A stretch of DNA of 64,000 bases, from contig CAVUPG010000004.1 of assembly GCA_963743435.1 (NCBI GenBank), forward strand, positions 176,238-240,237, read 5' to 3'. The notes beneath the pieces were generated by a model. That model worked only from the letters and a program-made list of their open reading frames with translations, was not told the origin of the DNA and made no database searches. Origin of the DNA: an uncultured Candidatus Saccharibacteria bacterium (lineage in GTDB: Bacteria > Patescibacteriota > Saccharimonadia > Saccharimonadales > UBA4665). The first letter of the stretch is position 1. The number at the start of each line of letters is the position of its first letter. The translations under genes and the position numbers were made by a program. Positions 18,981 to 35,001 of the stretch are shown piece by piece.

Positions 18981-21900
18981 TTAGTAATTCTCGTTAAAGC
19001 CGAATTGGAACGAACCGATTCGGACTAAATTAGTTTGCGGGCTGATGGCCGTCGGCTTAATGACGAAGGTTATCGTATCGTTTGCCGAGAAGCTACACCC
19101 GTTCCCGGGGTCGCTGATTGTCGTGGACGTCCATGATCCGGTTTGTTTGATCGACTGAGCCGATGCGTAGCAGCTCGTACCGCTTGCATCTTTTATCATG
19201 ACGGTTGCATCGGTGCTGGTGCCAGAGTCGAGGTATGACCAGAAGGTAAAGCTGCTGGAGGTGAACGACGTAAAGCCACTTGGGAGTTGGTACTGCACCA
19301 CTATGTCATAGTCCTGTGCCGTCCCCTGGTCAGTTGTCCATGCGTAGTAATTTCGCCCGGCAGTTGCATCGTAGTCGCTGGTCATGAAGCCCGTATTATT
19401 CGAGCCATCCGCCGAGAATACCGTGCTTGGGAACTCTGGGTTGATTTTGACGGTACGAACATGCGAGGAGCCGCTGCCGGTGGTGTCACAGTCAACCCAG
19501 CCCGTCGTGTAGCACTTGAACTTGTTGTTGGTGCTGTCGTAGTACATTGCACCGGCAAGACCTGTCGGCGTGATGGTAGATGGCACATTGTCGAGCACAA
19601 GAAGGGTGACATCGCCCGCAGCAGAAGCAGTACTATCGCCAATCTTGATGCGGTTGTTGCTCGTATCAGCCTGGAAGAGTACCTGGCTGCCGCCATTGTT
19701 TTGTATCTGAAGAGCGGTCGCCGAGTCAGCGAGCGGGCGAATTGTCGGCGTGTACACGCTCGTACCGAAGTAGCCGCTGCGCCAGGTGATAGCAGAGCTA
19801 CCGAGGTCGTCGGTGTTGGTAGTGTCAGAGATGAGGCTGGTGTTGATAGCGACACTGGCAAGGTTACTGAGCGCCTGGTTTGCGCCGCCACCGCCACCGC
19901 CGCAGCCCGAGCTCATCGTACAGATAGTATCGTTTCCAGTCAGGTCTGGGATACTCAGGGTGAAGCTACCAGTTGTCTGCGTAGCAGAAGTGAGGGTAAC
20001 GACATAGTTATTCGTGACGTTAGCGAAAGTAATCTTCCCGCTGACGGCGTTCGTACCGCCGTTGTAGTTACCGAGTTCAATTTGGCCAGAGGTGGTGTTT
20101 ACGTTCAGGACCGCGACACCGTTGCCGTCTTGTATATTGACGGCCGAGCTAGAGCTGGCTTGCCTGAAGCGGATGTCTTGGCCATTTGCCGCTATTGCCT
20201 GCCCAGAATATACAGTGCCTGTACCGAGGTCAAAGATACTTGTAGCACCCGTACCGTAGAAGAGATTGGAGGACAAAATATTGTATTGCTGTGACGAATT
20301 CGGTATGTAGATAGCGTATCCGGTACCAGCAGTGTCGGTGATGACGTTATTGTTTACGAGGTTGTAACTACCTGTTAGGTATATGCCGCCATTGTTAGAA
20401 CTACCACCTGGGTTAGTTATAGTGTTGTTGGAGAGTTCGTTATTGTTATTTGAGCCATTCATGTATATAGCATAACCACCCGAATTCACTACTGTATTCC
20501 CTGTGATACTGTTGTATTTACCGCCCACGTTTATACTTATTCCCTTGCTGTCCCCGGTTGAACTATTTCCTGAGACAGTTGTATAGCTCGCAGATACATA
20601 GATGCCGATGTTCGTGTTACTGACAGTTTTGTTACCGGAGATGATAGCACCATCTGTCAACACAGTGAGACCCTGGGCGTTTGATACAGCGGTATTATTC
20701 GTGATGCGCGCGGAGGCACTATTCGAAAGATACAACGCATAATTCTGGTTTGATGCAAAGTAGTTACTCGTGACAGAGGCATAGTTGACGCCTGTCATGC
20801 TAACACCGTATGTTGCGTTGTTGTATACGTATGACCTTGTGATCGTAACGTAGTTGATATTACTCATGTACATACCATTGGAACGGAAATTGCTGACCGA
20901 AACTCCATCGATTAGAATACCCGGTGCGCTGTTGGTTGCACTGGAGCTTAGATTAATACCTGTCTGCGTTCCAGAACTGTTGTTAGCCCGGTTACCGTCA
21001 ATTACTAGGTTTCTGATAACCATCCCTGATGCTCCCGTGGCGTTTATGACATTCACGGCCGCGTTTACAGAGTTAGCTAATTTTAAGACGGTTGCATTAT
21101 CAGTTCCGGCGAGGATCACATTTGTCCCGATATTTATCGCTCCATCCACGATGTATGTCCCATCCAGCAGGTACACAGTACCACCACTGGCTGGCAGAGC
21201 TGCGATAGCTGCGTTTATGGTGGTCTGGGCACTGGTACAGCTTGTATCGACGTAGTCGGCGCCGTCGTAGTTCTGTGAAGCAGTTGGGGTGGTACCAGTA
21301 CAACCAGTGGTTGGGCCCATGGCGACTATCTTGGTGGCGGTAGAGCGATCACTCACCCACTTGGTACCGTTGTACTGGAGGAGTTGGTGAGTACTGGTGT
21401 CGAAGTAGAGCATACCCTCGGTTGGAGAGCCGGGGCGAGAGGCGGTGTTGCCGCCGGTGAAGGAGATAGTTTGGTTAGCACCGAGGACAGCACCAGCATT
21501 GATGTTGACACTGTCGTTGAGGTTAATGGTCCCTGCCCCGTCGAGAACGATGTTACCACTCGTGGTGGTGGTAAGGTTGAGGTCACCGCTGGTGACGTTG
21601 AGGGCTGCACTGAGGTTGGTGGAGGCGATGTTGCTGAGGCTTGTGTTGGCGCCGCCGGCACCACCACAACTGGTCCAACCTAGCACACCACTGCCGGTTG
21701 TGTCTGACAGACAGTCGCCAGAGCTACCGAGGCCGGTTGGGAGGGTGAGATTGTAGCTGGTGCTAGTAGCACCAGACTGGATACCGACGTTATTGGCGTT
21801 GGTAGAGTTGTTGAAGACAATCTTACCGTTGACGGCGTTAGAGGCGTTGTACTCACCAAGCTCTATCTCTCCGTTGGTGGTGTCGACATTAAGGACGTTT

Positions 21901-24900
21901 CGTCCATTGCCATTCTGGATGGAAACAGCGGCAGATGAAGCGGCTTGTTTGAAGCGGACATCGAGGCCACCGGCGGTCATAGCTTGGCCGGCGTAGATGG
22001 TAGATGTGCTAGCATCGTTGATGGTCGTGGCACCGGTGCCGCTAAAGGTGTTACCAGAGAGGTAGGTATTGCTGTCTGTGCTTGCGCCAATGCGTATAGC
22101 GTACCCCGTACCCGCCGTATCAGTGATTTTGTTGTCGGTTATAGTGGTGTTAGTTGCGTATGTGTTCAGATATATAGCGTCGTTGGCACCTGAGCCGCCA
22201 TTGTCATAGAAAATGTTTCCCGTAATCTTGTTATCACTAGAGGGAAGGCCTACAGCACCGTTTAGTTGGATACCGCCCTGTAGGTTAGCACTAAGATCAT
22301 TTCCGCTAATAACCGAGCGGGTAGTGACGTATAGGATGATGCCGGGATCAAAACCTGAGCCCGTTGCCGTTACGGAGTTGGAATGTATGGTCAGATAGTT
22401 TGAGTATTGTGCGGCTATACCGCCCTGAGCACTTAAATTAATCTTGTTGTTCGACAGCGTAACGTGATCTGCCTCAACAGATATGCCATAGGTACTGCTG
22501 TTGGCAATCGTGTTAGCATCAACGACAGTGTAATCGCCCTTCATTTGAATGCCGTAGCCGTTGTTGTCTATAGCGTTGCTAGAGATAGTGTTGTGTTGGC
22601 TACTTGCACCATAGCTATAAATACCGGTATCGGTATTATCGGTGATAGTGTTTCCGGTAATAACGCTGTTGACCATATTCGAGGCATATATACCGATGGT
22701 CGAGTTGAGGATAGCGTCAGACTTGTCGGCTTGCCACTTGCCGAGGGCAGAGTTGTATACCAACAATTGCTTGTTTGTTGTGTCGTAGGTAGTCATGCCA
22801 TCAACTGGGCCACCGTAGCCACTGATATTGGCGTAGGTGTCACCCGCCAGTCTCAGGGTTTTACCAGAAGCCACCGTAGTGTTCTGGTTGAGGTTGATGC
22901 TGGTAGCATTTGTCGTACCAATGTTTAGTGTGCCTGCGGAGGCGGTGTCGAGAGCGGTACCCTGGAAGCTGGCGGCGGTTAGTTGGCCAACGAAGTTTGA
23001 GGTCCCGTCGTCGTAGAAGCTCATTATCTCAGAACCGGCATTATTCATGAATGCAAGGCGTGAATCTATACCGGTGGTTGACACCAGTTGCGATATCGTA
23101 AAGGTACGGCTCGTACTAGAGCTGCCGTTCCAGTATTTGCCAGTCATGTTGATGCTCATAGCATTATATACAGGGTTAAATGAGGTTGCGTTCGCTGCTG
23201 CCTGGAGGTTTAGCTTGTTATTGGTGCTATCTACCCTCAGGATCGGCTGTGAGCCACTATTCTGAATGACAAATACGCCAGTGCTACTCGTACTACCGAT
23301 TTGGGTGGTACCGCTGACTTCAAGATTGTAGCTTGAAGGTGTCGTGTTTATGCCTATGCGCTGGTTACTGGTGTCGACCGTAAGTATAGATTGTGTGCCT
23401 GCGGCATTTTGGATACGTATACCTGTAGTAGAGTCAGTGACAGCGCTAATAGTGCCACTCGCCAGACCATCATTAAACGTCTTGAGACCACCGAAGGTCT
23501 GGGCACTGTGTGTCACTAGGCCGGTGTGAGTGGCAGTTGCCTCCTGGAGGTAGATGGTGGTGGTACTGATGCTGGCGCCATTGTCACTGTAGGTACCACC
23601 GTCTAGGGCACCGACGGTAGTGACTCCGGAGCCAGTGCCCCCACCACAACTGGTGAAGCCTAATACACCACTGCCGTTGGTATCGACCAGACAGTCACCA
23701 CTACTGCCGAGGGCGGTTGGGAGAGTGAGGGTGTAGTCTGCGCTGGTGGCACCACTCTGGAGCTTGACGGTGTAGGTATTGCTACTGTTATTAAAGGTTA
23801 AGACACCGTTGATTGGGTTAGTGGCATCATACTGACCCAGCTGGAGCTCACCATTGGTGGTGTCAGCATTGAGCAGGTTGATGCCGTTGGCGTCTTGGAT
23901 GTTGACGGCACTAGTAGATGCGGCTTGTTTGAAGCGGATGTCGAGGCCACCCGCGGTCATTGCCTGTCCTGCGAAGATAGTGGTGGCACCTGCATCGTTG
24001 ATTGCCGTAGCTCCCGTGCCAGAGAATATGTTGCCAGACAGTACGTTACTTACCGCATTGCCGTCCGGGAGGTTTATGGCGTAGCCGGTACCCCCGTTGT
24101 CAGTGATTACGTTATCCGCAATGCGGCTGTAGCGACCTTGGTAGTAGATGCCGCTTGCTGTCGTGGTAACAGTACCAGAGTTCGTAATAGTGTTGCCTAT
24201 GATGGCATTGTAGTCACCGCCCGACCTCACCTGTATACCATGAGAGGTCGCGTTATATATAGTATTGCCGCTGTACGTAACACCTACAGTACTGGCACCA
24301 AACTGCGTGCCAAACTGGTCACCATCAGAGGTGTTCCCCGTAACAGTAGCGTAACTTGCAGGCACAATTCCTGCCCCAGCGTTGCTTGCTGTGTGGTTTC
24401 CAGTGATTACTGCCCTAGGCGTAGACAGACCAATACCATAGTTTCCGTTTGCCTTCGCAATGTTACCGGTCACACTTACACGACTCGACGCCATAATTTG
24501 CGCACCAACAGATGAGTTATTGTTAAACTTGTTACCACTAATGACCCAGTCGTTCCCTCCGCTTACATACAGACCTATTGAACCGTTACTGTCAATCAAA
24601 GAGTTACGGATGGTAAGTTGGTTCATGTTCCTGACGTACGTGCCATACTGCCTGAAGTTACGAGCGGTTACTTGCTCTATAGTTATTCCTGGCGTCGTGT
24701 TGCTGATTGAACCATTCTGAATGTTTATACCAATCTGGTTACCGCTACTGTTATTCGCTTTGTTGCCATCGAGCACTATGTCACGGAACGTTATGCCCGA
24801 GACATCGACGGAGTTTGAGATCATACTAATATTCGCATTGATACCATTCTTCAGCTTCAATATCGTGCTTTGGCCCGCACCTGCAATTGTCACATTGCTC

Positions 24901-25121
24901 GGCACTGTCACTGCACCGTCAATGATATACGTCCCATCCAGCAGGTACACAGTACCACCACTGGTTGGCAGAGCGGCGATGGCGCGTTTATTTCTGTCTG
25001 GGCACTGGTAGAGCTGGTAATGACGTAGTCTGCGGCGTCGTAGTTCTGACTGGCGATGGGTGGTGCCGGTACAGCCGTGGTCGGACCCATGGCGACTATC
25101 TTGGTGGCGGTGATCGATCAC
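18981..25121 (-). CDS. giant fibre protein A, distal 2/3: three pectate-lyase-like parallel beta-helix domains, stalk modules, conserved C-terminal domain
   Basis: 2046-aa ORF. PbH1-type repeats (NxxIxxNxxxGI...) lie at about 23960-24985, 21990-22720 and 20200-21240. Only codons downstream of about 24985 (AIAALPTSGGTVYLLDG...) are in the true frame. The ORF-track N-terminus (24986-25121) is out-of-frame read-through of the junction with ORF 25096..27609. Confidence 0.8.
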   Translation of the reverse strand: MIDHRHQDSRHGSDHGCTGTTHRQSELRRRRLRHYQLYQCPDRNKRAIAALPTSGGTVYLLDGTYIIDGAVTVPSNVTIAGAGQSTILKLKNGINANISMISNSVDVSGITFRDIVLDGNKANNSSGNQIGINIQNGSISNTTPGITIEQVTARNFRQYGTYVRNMNQLTIRNSLIDSNGSIGLYVSGGNDWVISGNKFNNNSSVGAQIMASSRVSVTGNIAKANGNYGIGLSTPRAVITGNHTASNAGAGIVPASYATVTGNTSDGDQFGTQFGASTVGVTYSGNTIYNATSHGIQVRSGGDYNAIIGNTITNSGTVTTTASGIYYQGRYSRIADNVITDNGGTGYAINLPDGNAVSNVLSGNIFSGTGATAINDAGATTIFAGQAMTAGGLDIRFKQAASTSAVNIQDANGINLLNADTTNGELQLGQYDATNPINGVLTFNNSSNTYTVKLQSGATSADYTLTLPTALGSSGDCLVDTNGSGVLGFTSCGGGTGSGVTTVGALDGGTYSDNGASISTTTIYLQEATATHTGLVTHSAQTFGGLKTFNDGLASGTISAVTDSTTGIRIQNAAGTQSILTVDTSNQRIGINTTPSSYNLEVSGTTQIGSTSSTGVFVIQNSGSQPILRVDSTNNKLNLQAAANATSFNPVYNAMSINMTGKYWNGSSSTSRTFTISQLVSTTGIDSRLAFMNNAGSEIMSFYDDGTSNFVGQLTAASFQGTALDTASAGTLNIGTTNATSINLNQNTTVASGKTLRLAGDTYANISGYGGPVDGMTTYDTTNKQLLVYNSALGKWQADKSDAILNSTIGIYASNMVNSVITGNTITDNTDTGIYSYGASSQHNTISSNAIDNNGYGIQMKGDYTVVDANTIANSSTYGISVEADHVTLSNNKINLSAQGGIAAQYSNYLTIHSNSVTATGSGFDPGIILYVTTRSVISGNDLSANLQGGIQLNGAVGLPSSDNKITGNIFYDNGGSGANDAIYLNTYATNTTITDNKITDTAGTGYAIRIGASTDSNTYLSGNTFSGTGATTINDASTSTIYAGQAMTAGGLDVRFKQAASSAAVSIQNGNGRNVLNVDTTNGEIELGEYNASNAVNGKIVFNNSTNANNVGIQSGATSTSYNLTLPTGLGSSGDCLSDTTGSGVLGWTSCGGAGGANTSLSNIASTNLSAALNVTSGDLNLTTTTSGNIVLDGAGTINLNDSVNINAGAVLGANQTISFTGGNTASRPGSPTEGMLYFDTSTHQLLQYNGTKWVSDRSTATKIVAMGPTTGCTGTTPTASQNYDGADYVDTSCTSAQTTINAAIAALPASGGTVYLLDGTYIVDGAINIGTNVILAGTDNATVLKLANSVNAAVNVINATGASGMVIRNLVIDGNRANNSSGTQTGINLSSSATNSAPGILIDGVSVSNFRSNGMYMSNINYVTITRSYVYNNATYGVSMTGVNYASVTSNYFASNQNYALYLSNSASARITNNTAVSNAQGLTVLTDGAIISGNKTVSNTNIGIYVSASYTTVSGNSSTGDSKGISINVGGKYNSITGNTVVNSGGYAIYMNGSNNNNELSNNTITNPGGSSNNGGIYLTGSYNLVNNNVITDTAGTGYAIYIPNSSQQYNILSSNLFYGTGATSIFDLGTGTVYSGQAIAANGQDIRFRQASSSSAVNIQDGNGVAVLNVNTTSGQIELGNYNGGTNAVSGKITFANVTNNYVVTLTSATQTTGSFTLSIPDLTGNDTICTMSSGCGGGGGGANQALSNLASVAINTSLISDTTNTDDLGSSAITWRSGYFGTSVYTPTIRPLADSATALQIQNNGGSQVLFQADTSNNRIKIGDSTASAAGDVTLLVLDNVPSTITPTGLAGAMYYDSTNNKFKCYTTGWVDCDTTGSGSSHVRTVKINPEFPSTVFSADGSNNTGFMTSDYDATAGRNYYAWTTDQGTAQDYDIVVQYQLPSGFTSFTSSSFTFWSYLDSGTSTDATVMIKDASGTSCYASAQSIKQTGSWTSTTISDPGNGCSFSANDTITFVIKPTAISPQTNLVRIGSFQFGFNENY

Positions 25122-27534
25122 TCACCCACTTGGTACCGTTGTACTGGAGGAGTTGGTGGGTACTGGTGTCGAAGTAGAGCATGCCCTCGGTTGGAGAGCC
25201 AGGGCGTGAGGCAGTGGTGCCACCGGTAAAGGAGATGGTTTGGTTAGCGGCGACGACCGCACCAGCGTTTATGTTGACACTGTCATTGAGATTAATGGTC
25301 CCTGCCCCGTCGAGGACGATGTTACCACTCGTGGTGGTGGTAAGGTTGAGGTCACCACTGGTGACGTTGAGGGCTGCACTGAGGTTGGTGGAGGCGATGT
25401 TGCTGAGGCTTGTGTTAGCACCGCCTGCGCCACCACAACTTGTCCAACCTAGCACACCACTGCCGGATGTGTCTGACAGACAGTCACCAGAGCTACCGAG
25501 TGCTGTCGGGAGAGTCAACGCGTAGCTGGTGCTGGTGGCACCGGATTGGATGCTGACGGTGTTGGTATTAGCTGTATTATTGAAGACGATCTTGCCATTG
25601 ACGGCATTGGTGCCGCCATTGTAGTTACCGAGCTGAACTTCCCCATTGGTGGTATCAGCGTTGAATAGGTCGACGCCGTTGGCGTCTTGAATTGTGAAGC
25701 TATTGGTACTGCCATAATCGGTTGTCACGATTACGCCACCATTCGCACCTGCTCCAATTGGAGCCCCGCCCGATAATATTAAGTTACCTCCATTTGCATC
25801 ATTTGTTGGGGATAAGGATATAATCGAGTAATATTGAGGCCCGGTCGGGCTAGAGGTGAACGTCTGTGAGAGCGTACCGTTCGACCCACTGACGCTGTAG
25901 CCAATCATACCCCCGCTGCCGGTTGAGGCATTGTTCTGGGCTAAAACAGTACCTGTAGTGATACCCACAGTGTCATTATTTTGTCGAACTGCACCAGCGT
26001 ATAGGACGAGATCTCCTGAGCTTACATTTACCGGTCCAACGACCGTAGAAGCCGAGCCAGTAAACGATTGGTAGCCTATATGGTCATTCACAGCACCGAC
26101 ATCGTGCACCCCTATAATACCGACCTCCCCATAACCTGCGCCAGTAAACGTCACGGTCACGGAACCCCCTATGTCGCCCAGTGTCACCGTCTTGTAGTAC
26201 AGCGCACCACACATGCCTGCGCCACAAGTGTACTCAGGCCGAGTCCAACCCGCGGGAGTATTAATACCATTGTATTGCTCGACAGACATGACAAGCATAT
26301 CACCGACCGATAGACCAGTCGGGTAGCTCGCCACCATACTCGCTACGTTATTTACATGGGTAAGCGTGTGACCAACTATAGTAGGCGATCCTGTAGCAGT
26401 TGCATTACCGGCTCTGACGCTCAGGCTGCTCCCAGTGCCGCTGGTCGCATCCGCTACTGAAATCGTGTGCGGTGTATCACCGCCGAAAGTGACATCGCCA
26501 GCTGCATTTACATCATCATTGAGATTAATGGTCCCTGCCCCGTCGAGGACGATGTTACCACTCGTGGTGGTGGTAAGGTTGAGGTCACCACTGGTGACGT
26601 TGAGGGCGGCGCTGAGGTTGGTGCTAGCGATGTTGCTGAGGGAGGTGTTGGCTCCTGTAGAACCGCTACAGTTTGCGAGCGTGACGAGACACAGGGTGTC
26701 ACTCGTGCCAGCGAGGTCTGGGAGACTAACGGTACCATTACCCACCGTCTGTGCTGCAATACTCAGGCTCACCTTGTACGCATTGGTGCTGTTGAACAAG
26801 TCAATTGTTCCCGTGGTGGTGCTGGCGGTACCGACAGCCAAAGAGGAGCCGAAGATACCTTTGCCGGAGATGTTGAGGTTACCGGTCTGAGCAGTACCCG
26901 GTGTGCTGCCTTGGAGCTGGATGAAGCCAGCATTCGCTTCGTTCTCGGTGAGGAGATTGTAGCTGCCGGCTGCACCTTGATCACGGATCTGGAACGTCTG
27001 GTCACCGACGGTTGGAGCCTGTAGCGTGAGCGTCGAGCTCAGTGCACCACTCGTCGTGATGAGCTGACTCGCTGTCTTCGCATTGAACGCATACGGTACG
27101 GCGGTGAGGGAGAGGCGTGGGGACATCTCACCGTCCCATGAGTTGGAGGTGCCAGTACCACCGATGTCCATGGTGAGGTAGAGCTGCTGGTCCCATGGGA
27201 TGGTGGATGGGAAGCTGGTGATGGCACCGAGGTCAACGCTGAGGTAGCCGTTGGCAACTCTGACTCGGTTGTCAGGAGAGCCACCGTTGTAGTCACGGGT
27301 TTCAGTCCAGAGGAGGGTGCCACCAGTGGAGGCGTCGTAGAGCTTGAAGCGGACGTTGTAGTTGCCGTCTGGGGCGATCTGGCCGGCTCCCTTCTGGAGG
27401 CGGGCTTGGAAGTTCAGGGTGTCGTTGGTGGCAGCATACGCAGGCGTAGACACGCGCGTAAGGAAAAACAGGGGTAGGATGAGCAAGAACAAGACCGAGA
27501 TAGCGCGGGCCATGGTGAGGATACGACCAGACAT
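25096..27534 (-). CDS. giant fibre protein A, proximal part (signal peptide, conserved N-terminal domain, unique globular insert, stalk module)
   Basis: Start chosen at MSGRILTMARAISVLFLLILPLFFLTRVSTPAYA|ATND (GAGGGG SD 8 nt upstream). It ends artificially at WVSDRSPPPR*, where paralogues continue WVSDRSTATKIVAMGPTT... Confidence 0.8.
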   Translation of the reverse strand: MSGRILTMARAISVLFLLILPLFFLTRVSTPAYAATNDTLNFQARLQKGAGQIAPDGNYNVRFKLYDASTGGTLLWTETRDYNGGSPDNRVRVANGYLSVDLGAITSFPSTIPWDQQLYLTMDIGGTGTSNSWDGEMSPRLSLTAVPYAFNAKTASQLITTSGALSSTLTLQAPTVGDQTFQIRDQGAAGSYNLLTENEANAGFIQLQGSTPGTAQTGNLNISGKGIFGSSLAVGTASTTTGTIDLFNSTNAYKVSLSIAAQTVGNGTVSLPDLAGTSDTLCLVTLANCSGSTGANTSLSNIASTNLSAALNVTSGDLNLTTTTSGNIVLDGAGTINLNDDVNAAGDVTFGGDTPHTISVADATSGTGSSLSVRAGNATATGSPTIVGHTLTHVNNVASMVASYPTGLSVGDMLVMSVEQYNGINTPAGWTRPEYTCGAGMCGALYYKTVTLGDIGGSVTVTFTGAGYGEVGIIGVHDVGAVNDHIGYQSFTGSASTVVGPVNVSSGDLVLYAGAVRQNNDTVGITTGTVLAQNNASTGSGGMIGYSVSGSNGTLSQTFTSSPTGPQYYSIISLSPTNDANGGNLILSGGAPIGAGANGGVIVTTDYGSTNSFTIQDANGVDLFNADTTNGEVQLGNYNGGTNAVNGKIVFNNTANTNTVSIQSGATSTSYALTLPTALGSSGDCLSDTSGSGVLGWTSCGGAGGANTSLSNIASTNLSAALNVTSGDLNLTTTTSGNIVLDGAGTINLNDSVNINAGAVVAANQTISFTGGTTASRPGSPTEGMLYFDTSTHQLLQYNGTKWVSDRSPPPR

Positions 27535-27685
27535 GACGAGACCCCTCAAGTCGGGGTGACTGGGGGTATGACGAGGCGGTATGGGCGTATTGCCTGAGAG
27601 ACCTGGCATGTGTTTTTGGTTTGTTTGGTTTGGTTTTAAAGTTTTGGAAAGTTTGTGTGTGTATCGGTTTTGGTTTTGGTCGATA
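27071..27685 (-). repeat. shared 5' module, copy A (proximal leader + signal peptide + N-terminal domain)
   Basis: Near-identical by eye to 41664-42275. The coding part also matches 55331-55749. Confidence 0.8.
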
Positions 27686-28007: not shown

Positions 28008-28472
28008 TTATGGGTTTTGCGTGCCGAGTACCACGTAGTCAAACGCGTATGTTTGTCCGGCCTGCACCGTGTCATTCGAGACGATATCAAAGCCTGAGGC
28101 TGTCTTGACGACGTAGATGCGTAAGTTAGCGGCCTGGTCGTTCGATGCACTAGCGACGACCTTGTACGAGCTACCGTAGGCGTCTACAAAGCTAATGTGC
28201 GCGAGTACACCGCTCGCAACATTCTGCGCCCCAGCTGTTACCGTGACCGTGCCTGCTGCGTCAGTACCGTCATTGCTGATAGCAGGAGCGTTTGTACTCG
28301 TGCCCAGAACGCCCTGCCCCAGCGCGTCACCAGTGCTCACGGTCGGCGCTGCACCCTTAGTGACGATGTGGCCATTGACATAGATATCGCCTGTCTCGAG
28401 AGTGCCGGCTACCGTGACATTACCGCTCACACTCAAATTGCCGTTCACGATATTGATTGGCAAAGCTCGCAT
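28008..28472 (-). CDS. C-terminal domain of fibre C (fragment)
   Basis: 154-aa ORF ending the frame-broken fibre C. This C-terminus (…TYAFDYVVLGTQNP*) differs from that of fibres A and D. Confidence 0.6.
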   Translation of the reverse strand: MRALPINIVNGNLSVSGNVTVAGTLETGDIYVNGHIVTKGAAPTVSTGDALGQGVLGTSTNAPAISNDGTDAAGTVTVTAGAQNVASGVLAHISFVDAYGSSYKVVASASNDQAANLRIYVVKTASGFDIVSNDTVQAGQTYAFDYVVLGTQNP

Positions 28473-29715
28473 TGCCAGTCACATTGAGGTTGCTGATGCT
28501 AGGCTGTGCCGCTAATAGTGAGGTCAGTGCCCATGATTTGGTTTGCCACGCTCAGGTTCTGAGTCTGTAAGGTGTTGGTGTTATTTTTCTGGTCGTAGAA
28601 GCTGAAGAGTACTGATACCTTGGCTACCTTGACGCCGTTTGCGTCGTGGTCACCGTGCTCCAGTCGACTGGTGCGGCTGCCTTAGCGAACACATGGCTGA
28701 CAGCGAATGTGCCTGGGTCACGCTGTGCGTACCCACTAAGACTGCTTGAGATGAGCGGCTCACCAATCTTGACATTGCCCGTGCCATTGTCAGCGATCCA
28801 GACGTCGCCGTTACCAGCTGCAGCGACGAGCTACGGGTTGTCCAGCGAGTATGGTTGCGCGTTTCGCTCAGGCCATTGAATGAACCAAGTACATTCGTGT
28901 CGTTTTCTGTGGCAGTCTGCACAATGCCATAGATAGGCTCGTTGCTGCCGGCCTTGTAGGCATTATCTCCGGTCAGCGATACAAGTTTGCCAGCGGCTAG
29001 ATGGGCCAATCAATCTTCGCATAGTGCGAGCCGGTAAAAGCATTGTAACTGACCGTACCCGAGGCAACACTAATTGTACCGATCGTCGTGTTGTCTCGCC
29101 TGAACGCAGAGCCAGACCGTCGTCCGTAGACCGATCGATACGTGTAGAGGGTTCGAGGCGTGCTCGGACAACAGAGTGGTCGAACTTAGCCGACGGCGCC
29201 ATTTGGCCGATGGAGACGCGGTTACTGCTATTGATAGACGATCGCAGATTAGAAGTCCCGCCAACGCCAAACTAGAGCTCGCATTTGCATTAGTGTTCAC
29301 ATTATTGATATATGTCTGGTTTGGCCGGTTGAACTTTAGTCAGCCCCTGAAATCTGCGTGTAGCAGTTGTCGCTACCGGAACAAGTTGCGTCACGGCGTT
29401 CCCGATCTGCAGCATCCGTTCGTGGTGTCAACAGTCAGGACAGCAAGGCCACTGGCATTTTGCACAAGGAGCGAGCTCGTGACTGTTAGCAGTTGGAGCG
29501 AGCGTGAGCCTCCATTTGCCAGTGTCGCTGAGTCGGCCCCTGCCTGCAGCGGCGGTAGTTGAACTTGGTGCGTTGACCCAATCGTCACCGTATCTGCAGC
29601 TGTCGCATTCGTGGCGATATTGATCGAATTTGCGGCACTATTTCCACTCCACCAATGTTAATTGTGCTGTCAAGCGCTGTGTTACCGAGATTCACATTGC
29701 CATTACTATTGATGT
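28473..29715 (-). pseudogene. fibre C segment shattered into at least 5 frame pieces
   Basis: Short minus-strand ORFs 28650..29009, 28963..29202, 29070..29300 and 29391..29588 carry fibre-type sequence (e.g. LLVQNASGLAVLTVDTTNG) in alternating frames. Confidence 0.55.
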
Positions 29716-32700
29716 CTACCAGTGACTGGCCCCCGACACTACTTGCCAGATACATTGGGTAATTATTCGTGCCACCCGTGATATTTTGTGCGTAGTAGCC
29801 ATACAGATTTGTTGCGAGCCGTTCGCAAGTGGGCGTGCCATGAAGTCGTAGGCGTTTGTCACCGTCGATGCAAAGTCGAACTGGCCCATGACACCGACGG
29901 CGTTCTGGATAGAACCGGATCCACTTGCGGTGCCAACCTTGCCGATAGTGCCGACCACGTATCCAGTGTTTGACGTGTTGGATGCGCCACTCCAGTTGAC
30001 CTGGTTAACACTGCCGAAAACATCCCCGGTGAACGTTGTGCCCGTAGCACCAGGGGAAGCGAGAAGCAGATTCCCAAAATGGCCCCCTGCGCTTGAGCCA
30101 CCCGGGTTAAAGGTGGTGCTCAAGGTGTTGCCTGGCTGTAGACCCCCACCATTGTTCTGGTTTGTCTGCAGCGAGAACCCTGCTCCGCCATTAGTACCTG
30201 TAGCCTGAATCGAAACGTTCGTATTGTTTGCGGTAATGCTACTAGCCCCACCACGGATGACTGTGCTCGAACCGGAATGGGTAGAACCTATTGTGACGGT
30301 ATCGGCAGCCGTCGCATTAGTGGCGATATTGATGGTGTTGGCTGCGCTATTAGAGACACCCCCGATATCTATCGTAGTAGCGACTGTCGTATCACCAATC
30401 TTAATGCCTCCCGAACCAGAGTTGATCACAACACTTGTCGCACCTGTCGTGTTACCTATGGTAATCGTCTTGGCGTTTGCACCGGTACCGATATTCAGCG
30501 CTCCCGTTGTACCAGAGTCGACAAGGAGTGCCGTGGCCGTGGCTGATTGGAATACGGGTGCGGTAAAGCTCGTCGTCGCACGGCCATCACCGCTTATCCA
30601 GAAATTCGATGTACTCTGCGCGCTACTATTTTGGTTTCGTATGTAGCTTGTATCTGCTGTTGTCGTAGTTAGCAGCGTCCCGCTCACATTCGGCAGTGTC
30701 CACGTACGGTTAGCCGTTAGGTCAGCGTTGGTGATGGTGCCAGTGAAGCGACCTGCTCCACCTGCCGTGACTGCAACGGCGATGAGGTCGTCCGTGGCGG
30801 TCGAGGTGTCTACCGTGAGCGTACGGATGGTTGCACCACCCTGGAAGCTCGAAGCTGTGGTGGTGGTTGCACCACGACCAGTGACCGTAGCAAGGGTGTC
30901 GGCTTCGGCACTGAGACCACAACTACCCCATTGGATGCTGGTTGTGGTGCTGGTGAGACATTGACCGTTGGTACCACGAGCCAGACGAGTACTGTTGGTA
31001 CCGTTGTTGTAGAGGAGGTCACCATTGGTCGTGAGCTGAGAGAGGTTGTTGATGGCGCTTTGGCTGGTGGTGGCACCAGTGCCACCATTGGCTATGGGCA
31101 CTGCTGGTGGTGCCGGGACGCCACCAGCGGTGTTGGTGACGATGCCAGCGGTACTCAGGCCAGTTATAGTCACCGTCTTCCCCGCTGCCACAACCGTATT
31201 TTGGTTGAGGTTGATGCTGGTGGCATTGGTGGTGCCGATGTTGAGGGCGGCGGCAGACGCAGTGTCGACCAAAGACGCTAAGAGATTTGTTGTTCGAGTC
31301 GTACCTGACACGTCGAGATCGTATTGAGGGTTAACGGTACCGATGCCGACCTTGCCGGCCCCGCTCAACTGCAGCCCTGCGTAGTTGATGTAGTAGTGTC
31401 GACCACTAGCTGTAAACCCGACACTTGAAGAGACAGTAATGTGGGTAGCGCCAGTGTACCCGGTTATTGTACCGACGTATGGCGCAGTTGAGGTCGATGC
31501 TGAATCGATGTAGATAGTGTTGCCTACCATACCAGCGCTAAAGCTTGTCCCCGTACCTACGATAGCGCCAGAAGCGTTTGTGGTCGCGACGGTACCAGCA
31601 CTGGTGCGGTAGGCCTCTGCAGATAGTTGGTTCAACGGGGCACCCGTGCCGATACCAACTTTTACGGAGTCTACGCCCTGACCACCAAGCGCGATAGTAT
31701 TCGACTGGAAGACCTGTGCGTAGGCACCGATGGCGGTGGTGTTTTGCAGATTATTTACGGACTCGAAGTACGAGCCAGAGTCCCAGCCGCCTGCAGCATA
31801 ACCGATGGCAGTGTTGTGGCTACCCGTCGTGTTGTTGAACCCAGAGTAGGCACCAAAGCCCGCGTTACCGCTACCTGTAGTATTTGAGTAAAGTGCCTCT
31901 TCGCCAAACCCTGCATTTTCGTCACCGCTTACATTGCCCTGCAAAGCCCAGCTACCTGTGGCCACGTTGTAATAACCGGTTGAGTTTTGAGAGAGCGATT
32001 GAGAACCAACAGCAATGTTCCAGCCTCCGCTCGTGTTATTGAGGAGCGCAATCTCGCCAATCGCAACGTTTTGCGAACCGGTCGTGTTGTGAAGCAGTGT
32101 CGATGGCCCAACTGCCGTGTTACGATTACCGGTTGTAACGCTCTGGAGAGCGTTAAGTCCGATACCGACGTTGTCGTAGCTACTGCTCTGAGCATTTTGG
32201 AGTGCGCCCGTACCAAAGCCCAAGTTGCCGTTGTACGCGCGTATCTCGGCACCCGTCGCACCAGTGCTGTCTTTGATTACGATTGGGGCAGAAGCAATAC
32301 TTGAGACGGGCTTGATACTCAGAATGGTGATTGAGCCTGTCTGTGCGCTATCCACACCGACCGCAAAGCTTGCCGTCGTAGTCGCGGTTAATAACTGGCT
32401 CTTTGACGTGGTGTTGCCGAAGATATAGATACCTGTCGCTCCGCCCAGTTTTGGCCAGAATGCGTATCCACTTGTCGTACCTGTCGTCGTGTATTTGACC
32501 TCATATGTCGTACCGGCAGTGATGCTTGGGCTTGTACAAGTAAGCACTGTATTGGAGCCGGCTGTGTGCGTCCATACATTGGTGCCGGTATCTGTCCAGT
32601 TAGTACCAGTACAGGTGTTGTTATCAGCTCCGAAGACATCCGATCCCACCGTGGCATTATCGTACTTATTCTGGAAGCTGGTCTGCTGGGTAGAAGCATC

Positions 32701-32880
32701 GACGTTGAAAAACGTCGTCCCACCTGTCGTCGCAACACTCAGTGCATTTGCGTAGTCACTCGTAATCTTGATGCCTCGATTTGAGGTATCGATAGTGAGA
32801 ATATCTGCAGTACCTGCAGCATTCTGTATCTTGAGAGCGGTAGTTGAGTCAGCTAATGGACGAATCGTTGGCGTATACAC
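29716..32880 (-). CDS. fibre C fragment (1054 aa): stalk and tail-fibre-like modules
   Basis: Begins mid-motif ([19 protein letters not shown], internal in fibre A). Contains ...[32 protein letters not shown]... and Gly/Thr/Ser/Asn-rich repeats. Confidence 0.75.
30677..31249 (-). repeat. about 0.57-kb intragenic repeat, copy 1 (ANGGTGATT / [18 protein letters not shown] module)
   Basis: Near-identical by eye to 35170-35742 and 37373-37870. The ORF track shows nearly identical spurious antisense ORFs at all three sites. Confidence 0.85.
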
Positions 32881-33176
32881 TGCCGTGCCGAAATAACCAT
32901 TGCGCCAGGTGATGGCAGCGCTACCAAGATCGTCGGTGTTGGTGGTGTCAGATATGAGGCTGGTGTTGATAGCGACGCTCGCGAGGTTGTGAAAGCGGTA
33001 TTAGCACCACCCGCACCACCACAGGTCGTCCAGCCGAGCACGCCTGTACCGGTGGTGTCGTAGAGACACTGGCCTGAGCTACCAAGACCGGTCGGGAGGG
33101 TGAGATTGTAGCTAGCGCTCGTGGCGCCAGACTGGATACCGACGGTGTTTACGTTGGAAGCAATTATTGAAGACAA
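32853..33176 (-). CDS. fibre C fragment (stalk unit [14 protein letters not shown]...[10 protein letters not shown])
   Basis: 107-aa ORF. It is continuous in sequence logic with 33112..33696 upstream and 29716..32880 downstream, but in another frame. Confidence 0.6.
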
Positions 33177-33696
33177 TCTTGCCGTTGACTGGATTGGTGC
33201 CGCCGTTGTAGTTGCCGAGCTCTATTTGGCCTGAGGTGGTATTGGCATTGAAGACGTTTACACCATTGCCGTTTTGGATGGATACTGCTGCAGATGAAGC
33301 GGCTTGTTTGAAGCGGATGTCGGTGCCACCGGCGGTCATAGCCTGACCGGCATAGATAGTGTTAGTGCCGGCGTCACTGATGCTTGTCGCCCCCGTACCA
33401 GAGAAGGTGTTGCCGGAGAGGTATGTGCCGCTCGTACCAGTCGCATTTACCTGGATGGCGTAGCCTGTACCGGCTGTATCTGTGATGGTGTTACCGTGCA
33501 CTACAACATTGGCGGCGTATTGGTCGATGAGGATAGAGCTGGACGCTCCAGTGCCACCGTTGTTGTACAGGGTGTTATCACTAACGTTGGTGTCGTCAGA
33601 ATGGTAGGCCGATGAGCCGTTAACCCGGATACCCTCTGCGGTGTTGCTGCTGGCGGTGTTGCTGGTGATGAGCGCACGGTAGCGAGCCGTAGACAT
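33112..33696 (-). CDS. fibre C fragment (end of beta-helix domain 2 + stalk unit)
   Basis: Contains NTITDTAGTGYAIQVNATGTSGTYLSGNTFSGTGATSISDAGTNTIYAGQAMTAGGTDIRFKQ, paralogous to fibre D at about 52450-52700. Confidence 0.65.
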   Translation of the reverse strand: MSTARYRALITSNTASSNTAEGIRVNGSSAYHSDDTNVSDNTLYNNGGTGASSSILIDQYAANVVVHGNTITDTAGTGYAIQVNATGTSGTYLSGNTFSGTGATSISDAGTNTIYAGQAMTAGGTDIRFKQAASSAAVSIQNGNGVNVFNANTTSGQIELGNYNGGTNPVNGKIVFNNCFQRKHRRYPVWRHER

Positions 33697-33776
33697 AGAA
33701 GCCTTACCCGGTGTTCGAGACGGCCTTGTTACCAGTCACGACCACATCGTCCGCGTAGGCGATGTCGAAGCCACCA

Positions 33777-34304
33777 CTACCGTTGCCCGTCGCGGTGTTG
33801 CCTGTGACGCGCATGCCGACATCGGAGTCGATGTAGAAACCGTAGCTGTAGGCGTTGTTGCTGCGATGTTGTCAGACACGACATTGCGAGCGCCGTTAAT
33901 GTAGAAACCGGTGCCGCCAGTGTTGGTAGCAGTGTTATCACTGACAACATTGTCGGTACCGAATATCTCCATACCATCACCACCTGCAAGGTTGCTGATA
34001 GTGTTACCTGTAATTGTGTTAAAGGAGAGCCGGAATAGAGATTAATACCGCCACCGCCTGAGTTAATGATGGTGTTGCCTGCAATGTAGTTGTGATCTCC
34101 GGCAGTAATGTCGATCGAATCATATGGAATACGTGTAATTTGCAGGCGAGTCACAGAAGCGCCCGCACGAGAGGCAGATTCGCTGCCCATGTTGGTCAAG
34201 TTAATACCCGTGCCCGTAGCACTGTTGCGATCAGTTCGCCCATCGAGTTTAAGGTCACGAATCGTAACACCTGTTCCAGTGGTCTGATCGGTGTTCACAA
34301 TCAT
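33777..34304 (-). CDS. fibre C fragment (beta-helix domain 2, N-terminal turns)
   Basis: Contains TIRDLKLDGRTDRNSATGTGINLTNMGSESASRAGASVTRLQITR, paralogous to fibre D at about 53250-53420. The reading frame decays towards the 3' end. Confidence 0.6.
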   Translation of the reverse strand: MIVNTDQTTGTGVTIRDLKLDGRTDRNSATGTGINLTNMGSESASRAGASVTRLQITRIPYDSIDITAGDHNYIAGNTIINSGGGGINLYSGSPLTQLQVTLSATLQVVMVWRYSVPTMLSVITLLPTLAAPVSTLTALAMSCLTTSQQQRLQLRFLHRLRCRHARHRQHRDGQR

Positions 34305-34903: not shown

Positions 34904-35001
34904 GCTCGTATTGGCCCCACCGGCCGCCGCACTACAACTACTCCAGATAGGTGCAGCACCGACGCCGTTGGAGACAAGACATGAGCCAGCAGCGACTGCT
35001 G

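What the first reader, a model, noticed from the sequence alone, without database searches (positions are those of the whole stretch)
20200..24985. Tailspike-like beta-helix domains and tail-fibre-like motifs strung along cellular giant proteins
There are six parallel beta-helix (PbH1/pectate-lyase-like) domains. Three are in fibre A (about 23960-24985, 21990-22720, 20200-21240), two in fibre C (about 39840-40830, 33112-34560) and one in fibre D (about 52450-53560). Each opens with ...AQTTINAAIAALPASGGTVYLLDGTYIVDG..., the pattern I associate with Pectate_lyase_3-type phage tailspikes and depolymerases. Each is followed by the same stalk unit, GQAMTAGGLDIRFKQ...[30 protein letters not shown], which has two conserved Cys. 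The linker modules carry (T/N)xxRPGSP(T/S)EG(M/T)(L/M)Y(F/Y)DTxxxQLLxYxNGxKW and [19 protein letters not shown]. From memory, both resemble phage tail-fibre motifs. There are no capsid, terminase, baseplate or integrase genes, so this is not a prophage. It looks like a cell using tailspike architecture, plausibly to bind or cut a partner's surface polysaccharide.
Basis: partly seen in the sequence, partly recalled or inferred. Interest (0 to 1): 0.75.

Follow-up and report, generated by a model that had tools for sequence, protein, structure and literature searches.

The report
Phage-like surface fibres of a Saccharibacterium
A tiny parasitic bacterium (Saccharibacteria/TM7) encodes three giant secreted fibre proteins built from beta-helix and tail-fibre modules also found in phage receptor-binding proteins, and an N-terminal domain like that of Bdellovibrio prey-recognition fibres, so they are probably the adhesins it uses to grip another cell's sugar coat.

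Summary
Six right-handed parallel beta-helix domains lie at the stated coordinates in three paralogous minus-strand genes: fibre A (27609-18981), fibre C (42203 to about 28008) and fibre D (56028-49135). The evidence is Pfam Beta_helix at E 1e-46 and a confident AlphaFold core.

Three details are off:
- Domain A2 has no cap motif.
- D has no stalk unit, and the A3 stalk is divergent.
- The PVANGGTGA motif occurs only in fibre C.

The genome is a cellular Saccharimonadales (CPR) genome with housekeeping flanks and no phage hallmark genes.

The neck motif (RPGSPxEGMxYFDT...W) and the GGTG module match phage tail-fibre proteins by profile and by tblastn. The beta-helix body is closest in fold to AlgE mannuronan epimerases, with tailspikes next. 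It carries no conserved catalytic residues, so "cutting" is unsupported.

New here:
- Each fibre starts with a Sec signal peptide and a domain remotely homologous to the N-terminal domain of Bdellovibrio MAT fibres.
- The C-terminal domain is CBM-like.
- The architecture NTD-(neck-helix-stalk)n-CTD recurs in about 60 Saccharibacteria genomes.
- Modules are shuffled between close relatives.

Best reading: mosaic, phage-RBP-like glycan-binding surface fibres. They are a new variant of a known kind. The frameshifts are probably assembly errors.

The parts
18981..27609 (-). Fibre A gene, about 2,870 aa as one reading frame once the small indels at about 24980-25115 are bridged. Order: signal peptide, NTD, unknown domain, stalk, neck, BH A1, stalk, degenerate neck, BH A2, stalk, neck, BH A3, stalk-like unit, neck-like unit, CTD.
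   Evidence: ORFs 25096-27609 and 18981-25121; module map; indels relative to paralogous copies.
27433..27534 (-). Sec-type signal peptide of fibre A (MSGRILTMARAISVLFLLILPLFFLTRVSTPAYA|A). The same peptide is present in C, and a near-identical one in D.
   Evidence: Read directly from the translation. The public gene model for the identical fibre C N-terminus (P0002) starts at this Met.
27061..27432 (-). N-terminal domain (NTD) of fibre A, 98-100% identical in C (41655-42026) and D (55321-55692). Remote homologue of the Bdellovibrio MAT N-terminal domain.
   Evidence: NCBIfam Bdello_MAT_N hits 18 of 30 family members, best E 5.7e-10, with full-length coverage of the model.
23964..24992 (-). 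Beta-helix A1 (capped; cap region carries four small deletions).
   Evidence: Pfam PF12708 and PF13229.
21984..22720 (-). Beta-helix A2, a capless partial helix. A recombination breakpoint lies at about 22709.
   Evidence: Pfam best stretch aa 856-1026. It is 99.6% identical to the C-terminal 248 aa of a capped helix in L004, and the DNA identity starts abruptly at 22709.
20199..21266 (-). Beta-helix A3 (capped).
   Evidence: AlphaFold2 pLDDT above 90 for the core; Foldseek AlgE4 E 1e-9 and Sf6 tailspike E 1e-6; phrog_7458 tail spike E 6.5e-11.
21312..21524 (-). Neck module (..TASRPGSPTEGMLYFDTSTHQLLQYNGTKW..) before A3. Other copies: 25111-25293, 40902-41114, 34586-34789 and 53695-53886; degenerate copy at 22713-22901; related YYD neck at 19485-19613.
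   Evidence: 13 PHROG families at E below 0.01, best 2.3e-8. tblastn to the N-terminus of a Streptococcus phage tail fiber protein at E 7e-5.
21660..21989 (-). Stalk unit (GQAMTAGGLD.RFKQ ... GSSGDCL.DT.GSGVLGWTSCGG) after A2. Other canonical copies: 25429-25710, 23655-23969, 39476-39802 and 33015-33348; divergent copy at 19920-20204.
   Evidence: No Pfam or PHROG match. Modelled with pLDDT below 50.
18984..19463 (-). C-terminal domain (CTD) of fibre A, a beta-sandwich like carbohydrate-binding modules. Fibre D copy at 49147-49656.
   Evidence: AlphaFold2 pLDDT 76. Foldseek: CBM61 E 2.6e-5 (TM 0.65), Klebsiella phage K2-2 tailspike C-terminus, Bd1399, CBM11/4/16/6.
28008..42203 (-). Fibre C gene, broken into at least 7 reading-frame pieces (about 4,700 aa if continuous). 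Order: signal peptide, NTD, neck, BH C1, stalk, GGTG/SEAD modules, neck, BH C2, stalk, phage-like repeat region, GGTG. The 3' end is uncertain: 29716, or on to 28008.
39842..40856 (-). Beta-helix C1.
   Evidence: Pfam PF12708 E 4.7e-9 and PF13229 E 8.7e-9.
33343..34558 (-). Beta-helix C2 (three frame pieces). Its cap stretch is 95% identical in protein to that of the fibre D helix; the two regions are about 76% identical in DNA.
37135..37857 (-). GGTG1-SEAD-GGTG2 tail-fibre-like module set in fibre C. It repeats at 34931-35652; further GGTG1 copies lie at 38989-39201 and 30916-31158.
   Evidence: phrog_30390 E 2.5e-12 and phrog_31660 (tail fiber) E 2.5e-5. 55% identical to P0040, which lies in a phage structural cluster. 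tblastn to a 'phage-related tail fiber protein' at E 9e-5.
31660..32235 (-). Repeat region (NTA(I/V)G... units) in distal fibre C that matches phage virion and tail-spike families.
   Evidence: phrog_23837 E 1.8e-17 and phrog_4636 (tail spike) E 3.4e-12.
49135..56028 (-). Fibre D gene, an intact ORF of 2,297 aa (the real start is probably the Met of MPHRALTT...). Order: signal peptide, NTD, neck, BH D, non-stalk module, CBM_4_9, CTD.
52447..53667 (-). Beta-helix D.
   Evidence: Pfam PF13229 E 1.2e-23; TIGR03804 E 5e-17.
51379..51747 (-). CBM_4_9 carbohydrate-binding domain in fibre D.
   Evidence: Pfam PF02018 E 1.8e-8, aa 1428-1550.

Best explanation
The three genes encode secreted, cell-surface fibre adhesins of an epibiotic Saccharibacterium. 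They are distant, much enlarged relatives of the 'mosaic adhesive trimer' (MAT) fibres that Bdellovibrio uses to recognise prey.

Proposed working:
1. A Sec signal peptide exports the chain.
2. The conserved N-terminal domain holds the chain at the producer's envelope.
3. A long shaft of phage-tail-fibre-like modules (neck, GGTG, stalk with one disulfide each) projects one to three right-handed beta-helix domains outwards. Depending on the paralogue, it also carries CBM_4_9 and a CBM-like C-terminal domain.
4. These domains bind glycans on another cell's surface, most plausibly that of the actinobacterial host.
5. Specificity is diversified by swapping whole modules between paralogues and strains, as in phage receptor-binding proteins.

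Shown here: beta-helix fold, secretion signal, remote NTD homology to MAT_N, module sharing with phage tail fibres, CBM-like fold of the CTD, family-wide architecture, and module shuffling.

Inferred, not shown: trimeric assembly, surface anchoring through the NTD, glycan and host binding, and lack of enzymatic activity.
For: - Organism and context. Best homologues and 62 related loci are almost all Saccharibacteria/Saccharimonadales. The flanks are housekeeping genes.
- Fold. Pfam, the AlphaFold2 model, and Foldseek against PDB and BFVD.
- NTD. It is identical across the three paralogues. Bdello_MAT_N is the only NCBIfam family that hits it: 18 of 30 members, best E 5.7e-10, model positions 4-161 of 162 covered. 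[quoted passage not shown]
- NTD superfamily. 51,296 representative clusters carry it, always at the N-terminus, in proteins of 300-6,916 aa.
- Phage-shared modules..
- Glycan-binding parts. CBM_4_9 and the CBM-like CTD.
- No conserved catalytic set..
- Architecture. NTD-(neck-BH-[stalk])n-CTD recurs with 1-4 helices per ORF, in ORFs of 640-3,970 aa, including in complete genomes.
- Mosaicism. Helix modules are 98% and 99.6% identical to those of the L004 fibre but in the reverse order. The NTD is only 53% identical and the CTD 42%, while the neighbouring gene B is 92% identical in protein. L004 has one fibre where the window has two.
- Literature. Tn-seq in a cultivated Saccharibacterium found envelope proteins with glycan-binding domains to be essential for epibiotic growth (PMC10633639).
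Against: - The NTD matches to Bdello_MAT_N are all below NCBI's 60-bit cut-off. No MAT sequence was available for a direct profile-profile test.
- Trimerisation could not be tested. The closest solved helix (AlgE4) is a monomeric enzyme.
- The strict MAT capping-loop motif is absent.
- The stalk was modelled poorly and has no known relative.
- The CTD is conserved across family members (33-42% identity). That is less variable than expected for a specificity-determining tip.
- No expression, localisation or host data exist for this organism.
- Fibres A and C carry frameshifts. If these are real, two of the three genes would be pseudogenes.
Confidence: 0.6

Rival explanations
1. The proteins are secreted polysaccharide-active enzymes: depolymerases, lyases or C5-epimerases strung on one chain. 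They would cut or remodel the host's cell-wall or capsular polysaccharide for access or for nutrients.
For: - The top solved-structure matches are enzymes: AlgE4/AlgE6 epimerases, alginate epimerase/lyase, GH28, inulin fructotransferases, RbmB and phage depolymerase tailspikes.
- NCBI names one homologue 'glycosyl hydrolase family 28-related'.
- CBM-type domains often accompany enzymes.
- Arabinogalactan-degrading enzymes have been reported for a Patescibacterium (PMC11880426).
Against: - Across 69 near full-length family domains, no acidic, basic or His position is conserved in the helix body after the first coils; only an Asn ladder and Gly are.
- The AlgE YG(F/I)DPH(D/E) motif and the GH28 motif set are absent from all six domains. 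A3 has no His and a single Glu.
- A2 is a capless partial helix.
- All homology to enzyme families is at fold or generic-repeat level (NosD, Beta_helix).
Confidence: 0.15
2. The proteins are structural envelope or matrix components: an S-layer-like coat, a sheath, or general adhesion to abiotic surfaces or biofilm. Partner-cell recognition plays no part.
For: - They are secreted, very large and rich in Asn/Ser/Thr/Gly, and contain PbH1 repeats.
- The NTD superfamily is huge (51,296 clusters). It therefore cannot be restricted to epibionts or predators.
Against: - There are three paralogues with an identical NTD but different distal parts.
- Modules are shuffled and copy number differs between close relatives.
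- Modules are shared with phage receptor-binding proteins, and CBM-type domains are present. All of this fits a recognition role better than a uniform coat.
- No SLH or other known S-layer anchoring domain was found.
Confidence: 0.15
3. The locus is a degraded prophage or tailocin remnant, or a mis-assembled or chimeric repeat region. The 'giant proteins' are then not real functional genes.
For: - There are many frameshifts in fibres A and C.
- DNA repeats of 150-300 nt at up to 98% identity between copies could confuse assembly and polishing.
- The modules are phage-like.
Against: - No phage hallmark genes were found; the flanks are housekeeping genes.
- Each gene begins with a Sec signal peptide and a cellular NTD.
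- The same architecture occurs in about 60 independent genomes, including complete chromosomes CP064992.1 and CP064960.1.
- Fibre D and the L004 fibre are intact ORFs of 2,297 and 2,548 aa.
- tsf (essential) and parA are also frameshifted in this window, so the indels are most simply assembly errors.
Confidence: 0.05

Closest known systems
Bdellovibrio bacteriovorus MAT (mosaic adhesive trimer) chimeric fibre proteins (Caulton et al. 2024, PMC10769870; NCBIfam NF053851 Bdello_MAT_N)
   Same: - A signal peptide is followed at once by a conserved beta-rich N-terminal domain shared by all paralogues (remote profile match).
- A long fibre is built from phage-tail-fibre-like modules.
- There are several paralogues per genome, with variable distal parts and mosaic evolution.
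- The producer lives by attaching to other bacteria.
- A CTD fold match includes a Bdellovibrio protein, Bd1399.
   Different: - The NTD match is below the family cut-off.
- These proteins are 2-5 times longer.
- They carry one to three monomer-type right-handed parallel beta-helix domains in series, whereas the solved MAT shafts are intertwined triple beta-helices.
- There is no Peptidase_S74 chaperone.
- The strict MAT capping-loop motif is absent.
- The producer is a Gram-positive-type CPR bacterium.
- Trimerisation is untested.
Phage tailspikes and depolymerases of the pectate-lyase superfamily (e.g. Sf6, Det7, HK620, CBA120 TSPs; Pfam PF12708)
   Same: - Right-handed parallel beta-helix with the same type of N-terminal cap (PF12708 hits).
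- Foldseek E 1e-6 to 1e-5 against tailspikes and E 1e-10 to 1e-7 against phage beta-helix proteins in BFVD.
- phrog_7458 'tail spike' at E 6.5e-11.
- The CTD resembles the C-terminal domain of a Klebsiella phage tailspike.
   Different: - There is no virion-attachment domain and no phage gene context.
- The chain is exported by Sec.
- Several helices sit on one chain.
- No conserved catalytic residues.
- No detectable sequence similarity to any of 50,697 phage genomes by tblastn.
Phage tail-fibre proteins carrying the N-terminal 'P..P..G..YFD....L..Y.G..W' neck or the 'GGTG...GD(L/I)LY...L..G..G..L' module (PHROGs 20787, 1325, 8309, 30390, 31660; S. pyogenes prophage tail fiber; Streptomyces phage minor tail protein with Peptidase_S74)
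   Same: Both modules are shared at sequence level: 39% identity over 63 aa and 55-62% identity over 34-74 aa.
   Different: - In phages these modules sit in 250-420 aa virion proteins. Here they are repeated along multi-thousand-residue secreted proteins.
- The Saccharibacterial copies of the GGTG and stalk modules end in a Cys pair that the phage copy examined (P0040) lacks.
AlgE-type mannuronan C-5 epimerase A-modules (PDB 2PYG, 5LW3)
   Same: Best structural match of the helix body: E 1e-9, TM 0.71 normalised to the target.
   Different: - The catalytic YG(F/I)DPH(D/E) motif is absent.
- No R-modules were recognised.
- Sequence identity is 18-20%, and NCBIfam AlgG hits are only E 0.003-0.6.

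Membership tests
MAT (mosaic adhesive trimer) fibre family | A signal peptide followed at once by the conserved beta-rich N-terminal domain of about 130-160 aa (NF053851). | tested here: inconclusive
   A signal peptide is present. Bdello_MAT_N is the only family hitting the NTD: 18 of 30 members at E<=0.01, best 5.7e-10, near full-length coverage of the model. All scores are below the 60-bit curated cut-off.
MAT (mosaic adhesive trimer) fibre family | Several paralogues sharing the NTD but carrying diversified, chimeric distal domains. | tested here: met
   Three paralogues have NTDs 98-100% identical and different distal architectures. Modules are shuffled relative to L004.
MAT (mosaic adhesive trimer) fibre family | Homotrimeric fibre along its whole length. 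| not testable with these tools
   Only monomer AlphaFold2 was available. The shaft and stalk were modelled with pLDDT below 50.
MAT (mosaic adhesive trimer) fibre family | Capping-loop motif V-G-(G/N)-pi-x-x-P-x-x-x-L on triple beta-helix segments. | tested here: not met
   The strict motif is absent. A relaxed VGIGTxxPxxxL occurs twice in fibre C.
MAT (mosaic adhesive trimer) fibre family | C-terminal Peptidase_S74 chaperone (S74 subgroup), or an alternative adhesive tip (NS74 subgroup). | tested here: met
   There is no S74. A CBM-like beta-sandwich CTD forms the tip of A and D, which fits the NS74 type.
Phage tailspike / depolymerase (pectate-lyase superfamily) | Right-handed parallel beta-helix with a PF12708-type cap. 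| tested here: met
   The cap is present in 5 of 6 domains.
Phage tailspike / depolymerase (pectate-lyase superfamily) | Encoded in a phage or tailocin structural module and carrying a virion-binding N-terminal domain. | tested here: not met
   No phage hallmark genes; housekeeping flanks; Sec signal plus cellular NTD.
Phage tailspike / depolymerase (pectate-lyase superfamily) | Catalytic acidic residues in the groove that cleave the receptor polysaccharide. | tested here: inconclusive
   No family-wide conserved Asp, Glu, His or Lys in the helix body after the first coils. Tailspike active sites are not conserved between families, so individual domains cannot be excluded.
AlgE-type mannuronan C-5 epimerase | Catalytic YG(F/I)DPH(D/E) motif in the A-module. 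| tested here: not met
   A regex search finds none in any of the six domains.
Glycoside hydrolase family 28 | Conserved NTD / (G/Q)DD / (G/S)HG / RIK motif set. | tested here: not met
   No domain has more than one of the four motifs, and none has (G/Q)DD or RIK.

The most novel reading that the evidence does not exclude
Saccharibacteria, and perhaps CPR bacteria more widely, recognise their bacterial hosts with MAT-like mosaic fibres assembled from the same module pool as phage receptor-binding proteins. Whole beta-helix and tip modules are exchanged between paralogues and strains, and possibly with phages of the same hosts. An epibiont's host range would then be set and reprogrammed like that of a phage, and could be read from its fibre repertoire.
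Probability: 0.3. Interest if true: 0.8.

Novelty: new variant of a known kind. Interest (0 to 1): 0.6.

Why it matters
How ultrasmall CPR epibionts find and hold their specific host cells is largely unknown. Type IV pili are the best-documented factor, and a Tn-seq screen flagged several envelope proteins with glycan-binding domains as essential.

- This family supplies concrete, widespread candidates, found in about 60 Saccharibacteria genomes here. Their architecture links three contact-dependent lifestyles: phage adsorption, Bdellovibrio predation and CPR epibiosis.
- If the fibres determine host range, their modular repertoire could predict partners of uncultivated CPR bacteria. It could also guide cultivation.
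- Serial beta-helix domains on one chain, and near-identical modules placed in a different order in close relatives, make a tractable case of receptor-binding-protein evolution outside viruses.

Tried and rejected
- tblastn of the whole A3 helix module against phage genomes: no match.
- phmmer of the same module against PDB sequences: only a chance hit.
- Rfam scan of the window: nothing.
- Look-up of P0002, the public copy of the fibre C N-terminus, to name the source contig: not on record.
- The word-indexed search with the NTD reached only close Saccharibacteria fragments and no Bdellovibrio proteins. The MAT link therefore rests on NCBIfam profile hits.
- The stalk, NTD and CTD gave no Pfam or PHROG match.
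- The stalk could not be modelled as a monomer.
- The strict MAT capping-loop motif was not found.
- Literature searches found no paper describing these Saccharibacterial beta-helix fibres.
- Prophage origin was considered and rejected because there are no hallmark genes.
- Pseudogenisation of A and C was rejected as the default reading because tsf and parA are frameshifted too.
- A specific origin of the modules from actinobacterial phages was rejected. Streptomyces and Microbacterium phage hits are weak (E 0.02-0.9), and cyanophages dominate the hit list.

Full report
**What the window is.** The window is part of a cellular genome. Positions 1-13,600 carry rseP, frr, tsf, rpsB, rpmE, prfA, prmC, htrA, an LCP protein, lepB, parB and parA. 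Positions 57,308-63,617 carry ileS and a class II ribonucleotide reductase.
- The closest homologues of the fibre modules are named Candidatus Saccharimonadales or Saccharibacteria.
- A scan of one genome per GTDB species returned 62 related loci, almost all from Saccharibacteria MAGs.
- The nearest is L004 (MAG MFD05684.bin.1.284). Its module is 87% identical, and its neighbouring 1,515-aa gene is 92% identical in protein.
- No Rfam family is present.

**The genes.** Three large minus-strand genes share a beginning.
- Fibre A runs 27609 to 18981, fibre C runs 42203 to about 28008, and fibre D runs 56028 to 49135.
- Each starts with a Sec-type signal peptide (MSGRILTMARAISVLFLLILPLFFLTRVSTPAYA|A). 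An N-terminal domain of about 125-160 aa follows, 98-100% identical among the three.
- D is an intact ORF of 2,297 aa.
- A is split at about 25,100. C is split into at least seven frame pieces.
- The A1 head differs from its paralogous copies by four 1-2-nt deletions within 130 nt.
- The essential gene tsf and parA are each frameshifted as well. The related L004 fibre is an intact ORF of 2,548 aa.
- I therefore read the frameshifts as consensus errors, concentrated where repeats of 150-300 nt reach up to 98% identity between copies. I do not read them as pseudogenisation. Only the reads can prove this.

**Check of the observation.**
- Pfam gives Beta_helix E 1.8e-46, NosD 2.5e-34 and Pect-lyase_RHGA_epim 1.3e-6 for fibre A. 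It gives 8.7e-9 and 4.7e-9 for C1, 1.2e-23 for D, and weaker hits for the C2 fragments.
- Mapping 13 module queries by tblastn gives these architectures:
  - A = SP-NTD-...-stalk-neck-BH(A1)-stalk-...-neck*-BH(A2)-stalk-neck-BH(A3)-stalk*-...-YYD neck-CTD
  - C = SP-NTD-neck-BH(C1)-stalk-[GGTG/SEAD modules]-neck-BH(C2)-stalk-phage-like repeats-GGTG-...
  - D = SP-NTD-...-neck-BH(D)-other module-CBM_4_9-...-CTD
  - A2 has no cap.
  - D has no stalk.
  - The A3 stalk is divergent.
  - [13 protein letters not shown] occurs only in fibre C.
- The stalk's two cysteines are conserved in five window copies and in ten copies from other genomes.

**The helix.** An AlphaFold2 model of neck + A3 + stalk (17-sequence alignment) has pLDDT above 90 across the helix core and below 50 for the stalk.
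- Foldseek against the PDB puts the AlgE4/AlgE6 mannuronan C-5 epimerase A-modules first (E 1e-9, TM 0.71). An alginate epimerase/lyase comes next. Then come phage tailspikes (Sf6, Det7, HK620, CBA120, 9NA), GH28 enzymes, inulin fructotransferases and RbmB.
- Against predicted viral structures the best hits are phage and giant-virus beta-helix proteins at E 1e-10 to 1e-7.
- At sequence level the relation to phages is thin. One PHROG 'tail spike' family hits at 6.5e-11. tblastn against 50,697 phage genomes finds nothing.
- So the fold is that of the pectate-lyase-like superfamily, which includes tailspikes. It is not specifically a tailspike.

**Enzyme or binder?** I aligned 69 near full-length family domains from 62 genomes.
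- The conserved positions are the neck (R13 P14 P17 G20 Y23 D25 Q30 L31 L32 Y34 K38 W39), an ADYV motif, the cap (DQ..IN.AL.A...GG.V.L..GTY) and a DG in the first coils. In the rest of the helix body only an Asn ladder and glycines are conserved.
- The AlgE catalytic motif and the GH28 motif set are absent from all six window domains. A3 has no histidine and one glutamate.
- This argues against a family-wide active site. It does not exclude activity in single domains.

**Tail-fibre-like modules.** The neck is not low-complexity.
- As a 71-aa query it hits 13 PHROG families at E below 0.01 (best 2.3e-8), usually near the N-terminus of 300-400-aa phage proteins.
- By tblastn it matches the N-terminus of a 257-aa 'tail fiber protein' of S. 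pyogenes prophages (39% identity over 63 aa, E 7e-5). It also matches Streptomyces phage minor tail proteins, one of which carries a Peptidase_S74 chaperone domain, and many cyanophage proteins.
- In the Saccharibacterial family the neck directly precedes nearly every capped helix. A related YYD neck precedes the CTD. The neck therefore looks like an adaptor before globular domains rather than a free linker.
- The second GGTG unit (..GYGGTGLTSYTAGDLLYASGTSTLSKL..) hits phrog_30390 (2.5e-12) and a 'tail fiber' PHROG (2.5e-5). It has 649 database relatives.
- It is 55% identical to 331-aa proteins such as P0040. The neighbours of P0040 on a 56-kb contig match phage virion and tail-fibre PHROGs (E down to 0).
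- It also matches an annotated 'phage-related tail fiber protein' (E 9e-5).
Most of the annotated ones are tail-fibre proteins.
- A repeat region in distal fibre C matches two more phage structural PHROGs (1.8e-17, 3.4e-12).
- The stalk, NTD and CTD match no phage or Pfam family.

**The ends of the fibres.** The NTD is hit by one NCBIfam model only: Bdello_MAT_N, the N-terminal domain of Bdellovibrio mosaic adhesive trimer fibres.
- The window sequence scores E 4.8e-6. Two homologues are covered over model positions 4-161 of 162. 18 of 30 family members score E<=0.01, with a best of 5.7e-10. All are below the 60-bit cut-off.
[quoted passage not shown] It is thought to sit at the predator surface while variable C-terminal tips bind prey. 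The published list of MATs in other predators contains no CPR bacterium (PMC10769870).
- A profile of the Saccharibacterial NTD finds 51,296 representative clusters (2,590 at E<=1e-30). The listed matches all lie at the N-terminus, in proteins of up to 6,916 aa. The NTD thus marks a very large class of secreted fibres.
- The CTD (pLDDT 76) is a beta-sandwich. Its best matches are carbohydrate-binding modules (CBM61 E 2.6e-5 with TM 0.65, then CBM11, 4, 16 and 6), the C-terminal domain of a Klebsiella phage tailspike, and Bdellovibrio Bd1399.
- Fibre D also has a Pfam CBM_4_9 domain.

**Family and evolution.** Across the related loci the architecture NTD-(neck-BH-[stalk])n-...-CTD recurs. It ranges from about 930-aa minimal forms to ORFs of 3,300-3,970 aa with three or four helices, and it occurs in complete chromosomes.
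- The comparison with L004 is telling. The neighbouring gene B is 92% identical in protein and 95% in DNA. The L004 fibre has an NTD only 53% identical and a CTD 42% identical.
- Yet L004 contains one helix 98% identical to A3 and another whose last 248 aa are 99.6% identical to A2, in the opposite order. The DNA identity begins abruptly at window 22709, exactly where the capless A2 starts.
- L004 has a single fibre between the small upstream gene and B, where the window has C and A.
- Modules are therefore moved as cassettes between fibre genes of close relatives, as in phage receptor-binding proteins and MATs.

**Interpretation.** The best-supported reading is a set of secreted, surface-held, glycan-binding fibres, distantly related to MAT fibres and assembled from modules shared with phage receptor-binding proteins. 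The epibiont most plausibly uses them to attach to its host.
- Directly shown: fold, export signal, homologies, architecture and mosaicism.
- Inferred: trimerisation, anchoring through the NTD, and host binding.
- Supporting context: envelope proteins with glycan-binding domains are essential for epibiotic growth of a cultivated Saccharibacterium (PMC10633639).
- Rivals:
  - Polysaccharide enzymes. The fold neighbours are enzymes, but no catalytic signature is present.
  - A structural coat or general adhesin.
  - A prophage remnant or assembly artefact. This is contradicted by the gene context and by recurrence in about 60 genomes.

**Novelty.** I found no paper describing these proteins in CPR bacteria. 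Public annotation calls them 'right-handed parallel beta-helix repeat-containing protein'. The principle of cellular phage-RBP-like chimeric fibres for cell-cell recognition is known from Bdellovibrio. The CPR setting, the giant size and the serial monomer-type beta-helices are a new variant of it.

Noticed in passing
window 2740-3480 (tsf) and 12800-13600 (parA): Both housekeeping genes are split by a single frameshift, and tsf is essential. The assembly therefore carries indel errors. This matters for reading the broken fibre genes.
   Followed up: yes
window 14432-18979 (-): Gene B starts 2 nt after the stop of fibre A. It encodes a 1,515-aa protein with an N-terminal hydrophobic stretch that looks like a membrane anchor, two blocks of DUF5122 beta-propeller repeats (..SWSKTWGG..) and DGTDYTS repeats. 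It is 92% identical and in the same position next to the fibre in L004. It could be a partner or anchor of the fibres.
   Followed up: partly
window 43479-48456 (-) and 42550-43470 (-): A large Kelch-repeat protein with an N-terminal hydrophobic segment is broken into four ORFs. A 306-aa Pro-rich protein with a hydrophobic segment lies beside it. Both sit between fibres D and C, and related sequence lies upstream of the fibre in L004 (DNA match for the Kelch gene). The region looks like a surface-protein island.
   Followed up: partly
window 22709; L004 13181-13938: There is a sharp recombination breakpoint. DNA identity to L004 jumps to 99% exactly at the start of the capless helix A2. In L004 the same sequence is the C-terminal two-thirds of a capped helix.
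   Followed up: yes
window 28008-29716: The stretch between the last long fibre C ORF and ORF 28008-28472 is a mosaic of short ORFs in different frames. The 154-aa ORF (..NGNLSVSGNVTVAGTLETGDIYVNGHIV..) may be the true C-terminal tip of fibre C. It is unlike the CTD of A and D and matches no Pfam or PHROG family.
   Followed up: partly
window 25750-26450 (fibre A, aa about 390-620 of ORF 25096-27609): A Cys-containing domain of about 200 aa (..GHTLTHVNNVASMVASYPTGLSVGDMLVMSVEQYNGINTPAGWTRPE..) is unique to fibre A. It has no Pfam, NCBIfam or PHROG match.
   Followed up: no
NTD profile search (alignment A4): The N-terminal domain defines a very large superfamily: 51,296 clusters at 50% identity, in proteins of up to 6,916 aa. 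Its taxonomic spread beyond Saccharibacteria was not examined.
   Followed up: partly
L030 (CAVYSP010000012.1, labelled Gammaproteobacteria), L038 (Woesebacteria), L065 (Chthonomonadaceae): A few family members lie in MAGs labelled as non-Saccharibacteria. This could reflect mis-binning, or wider distribution or transfer.
   Followed up: no
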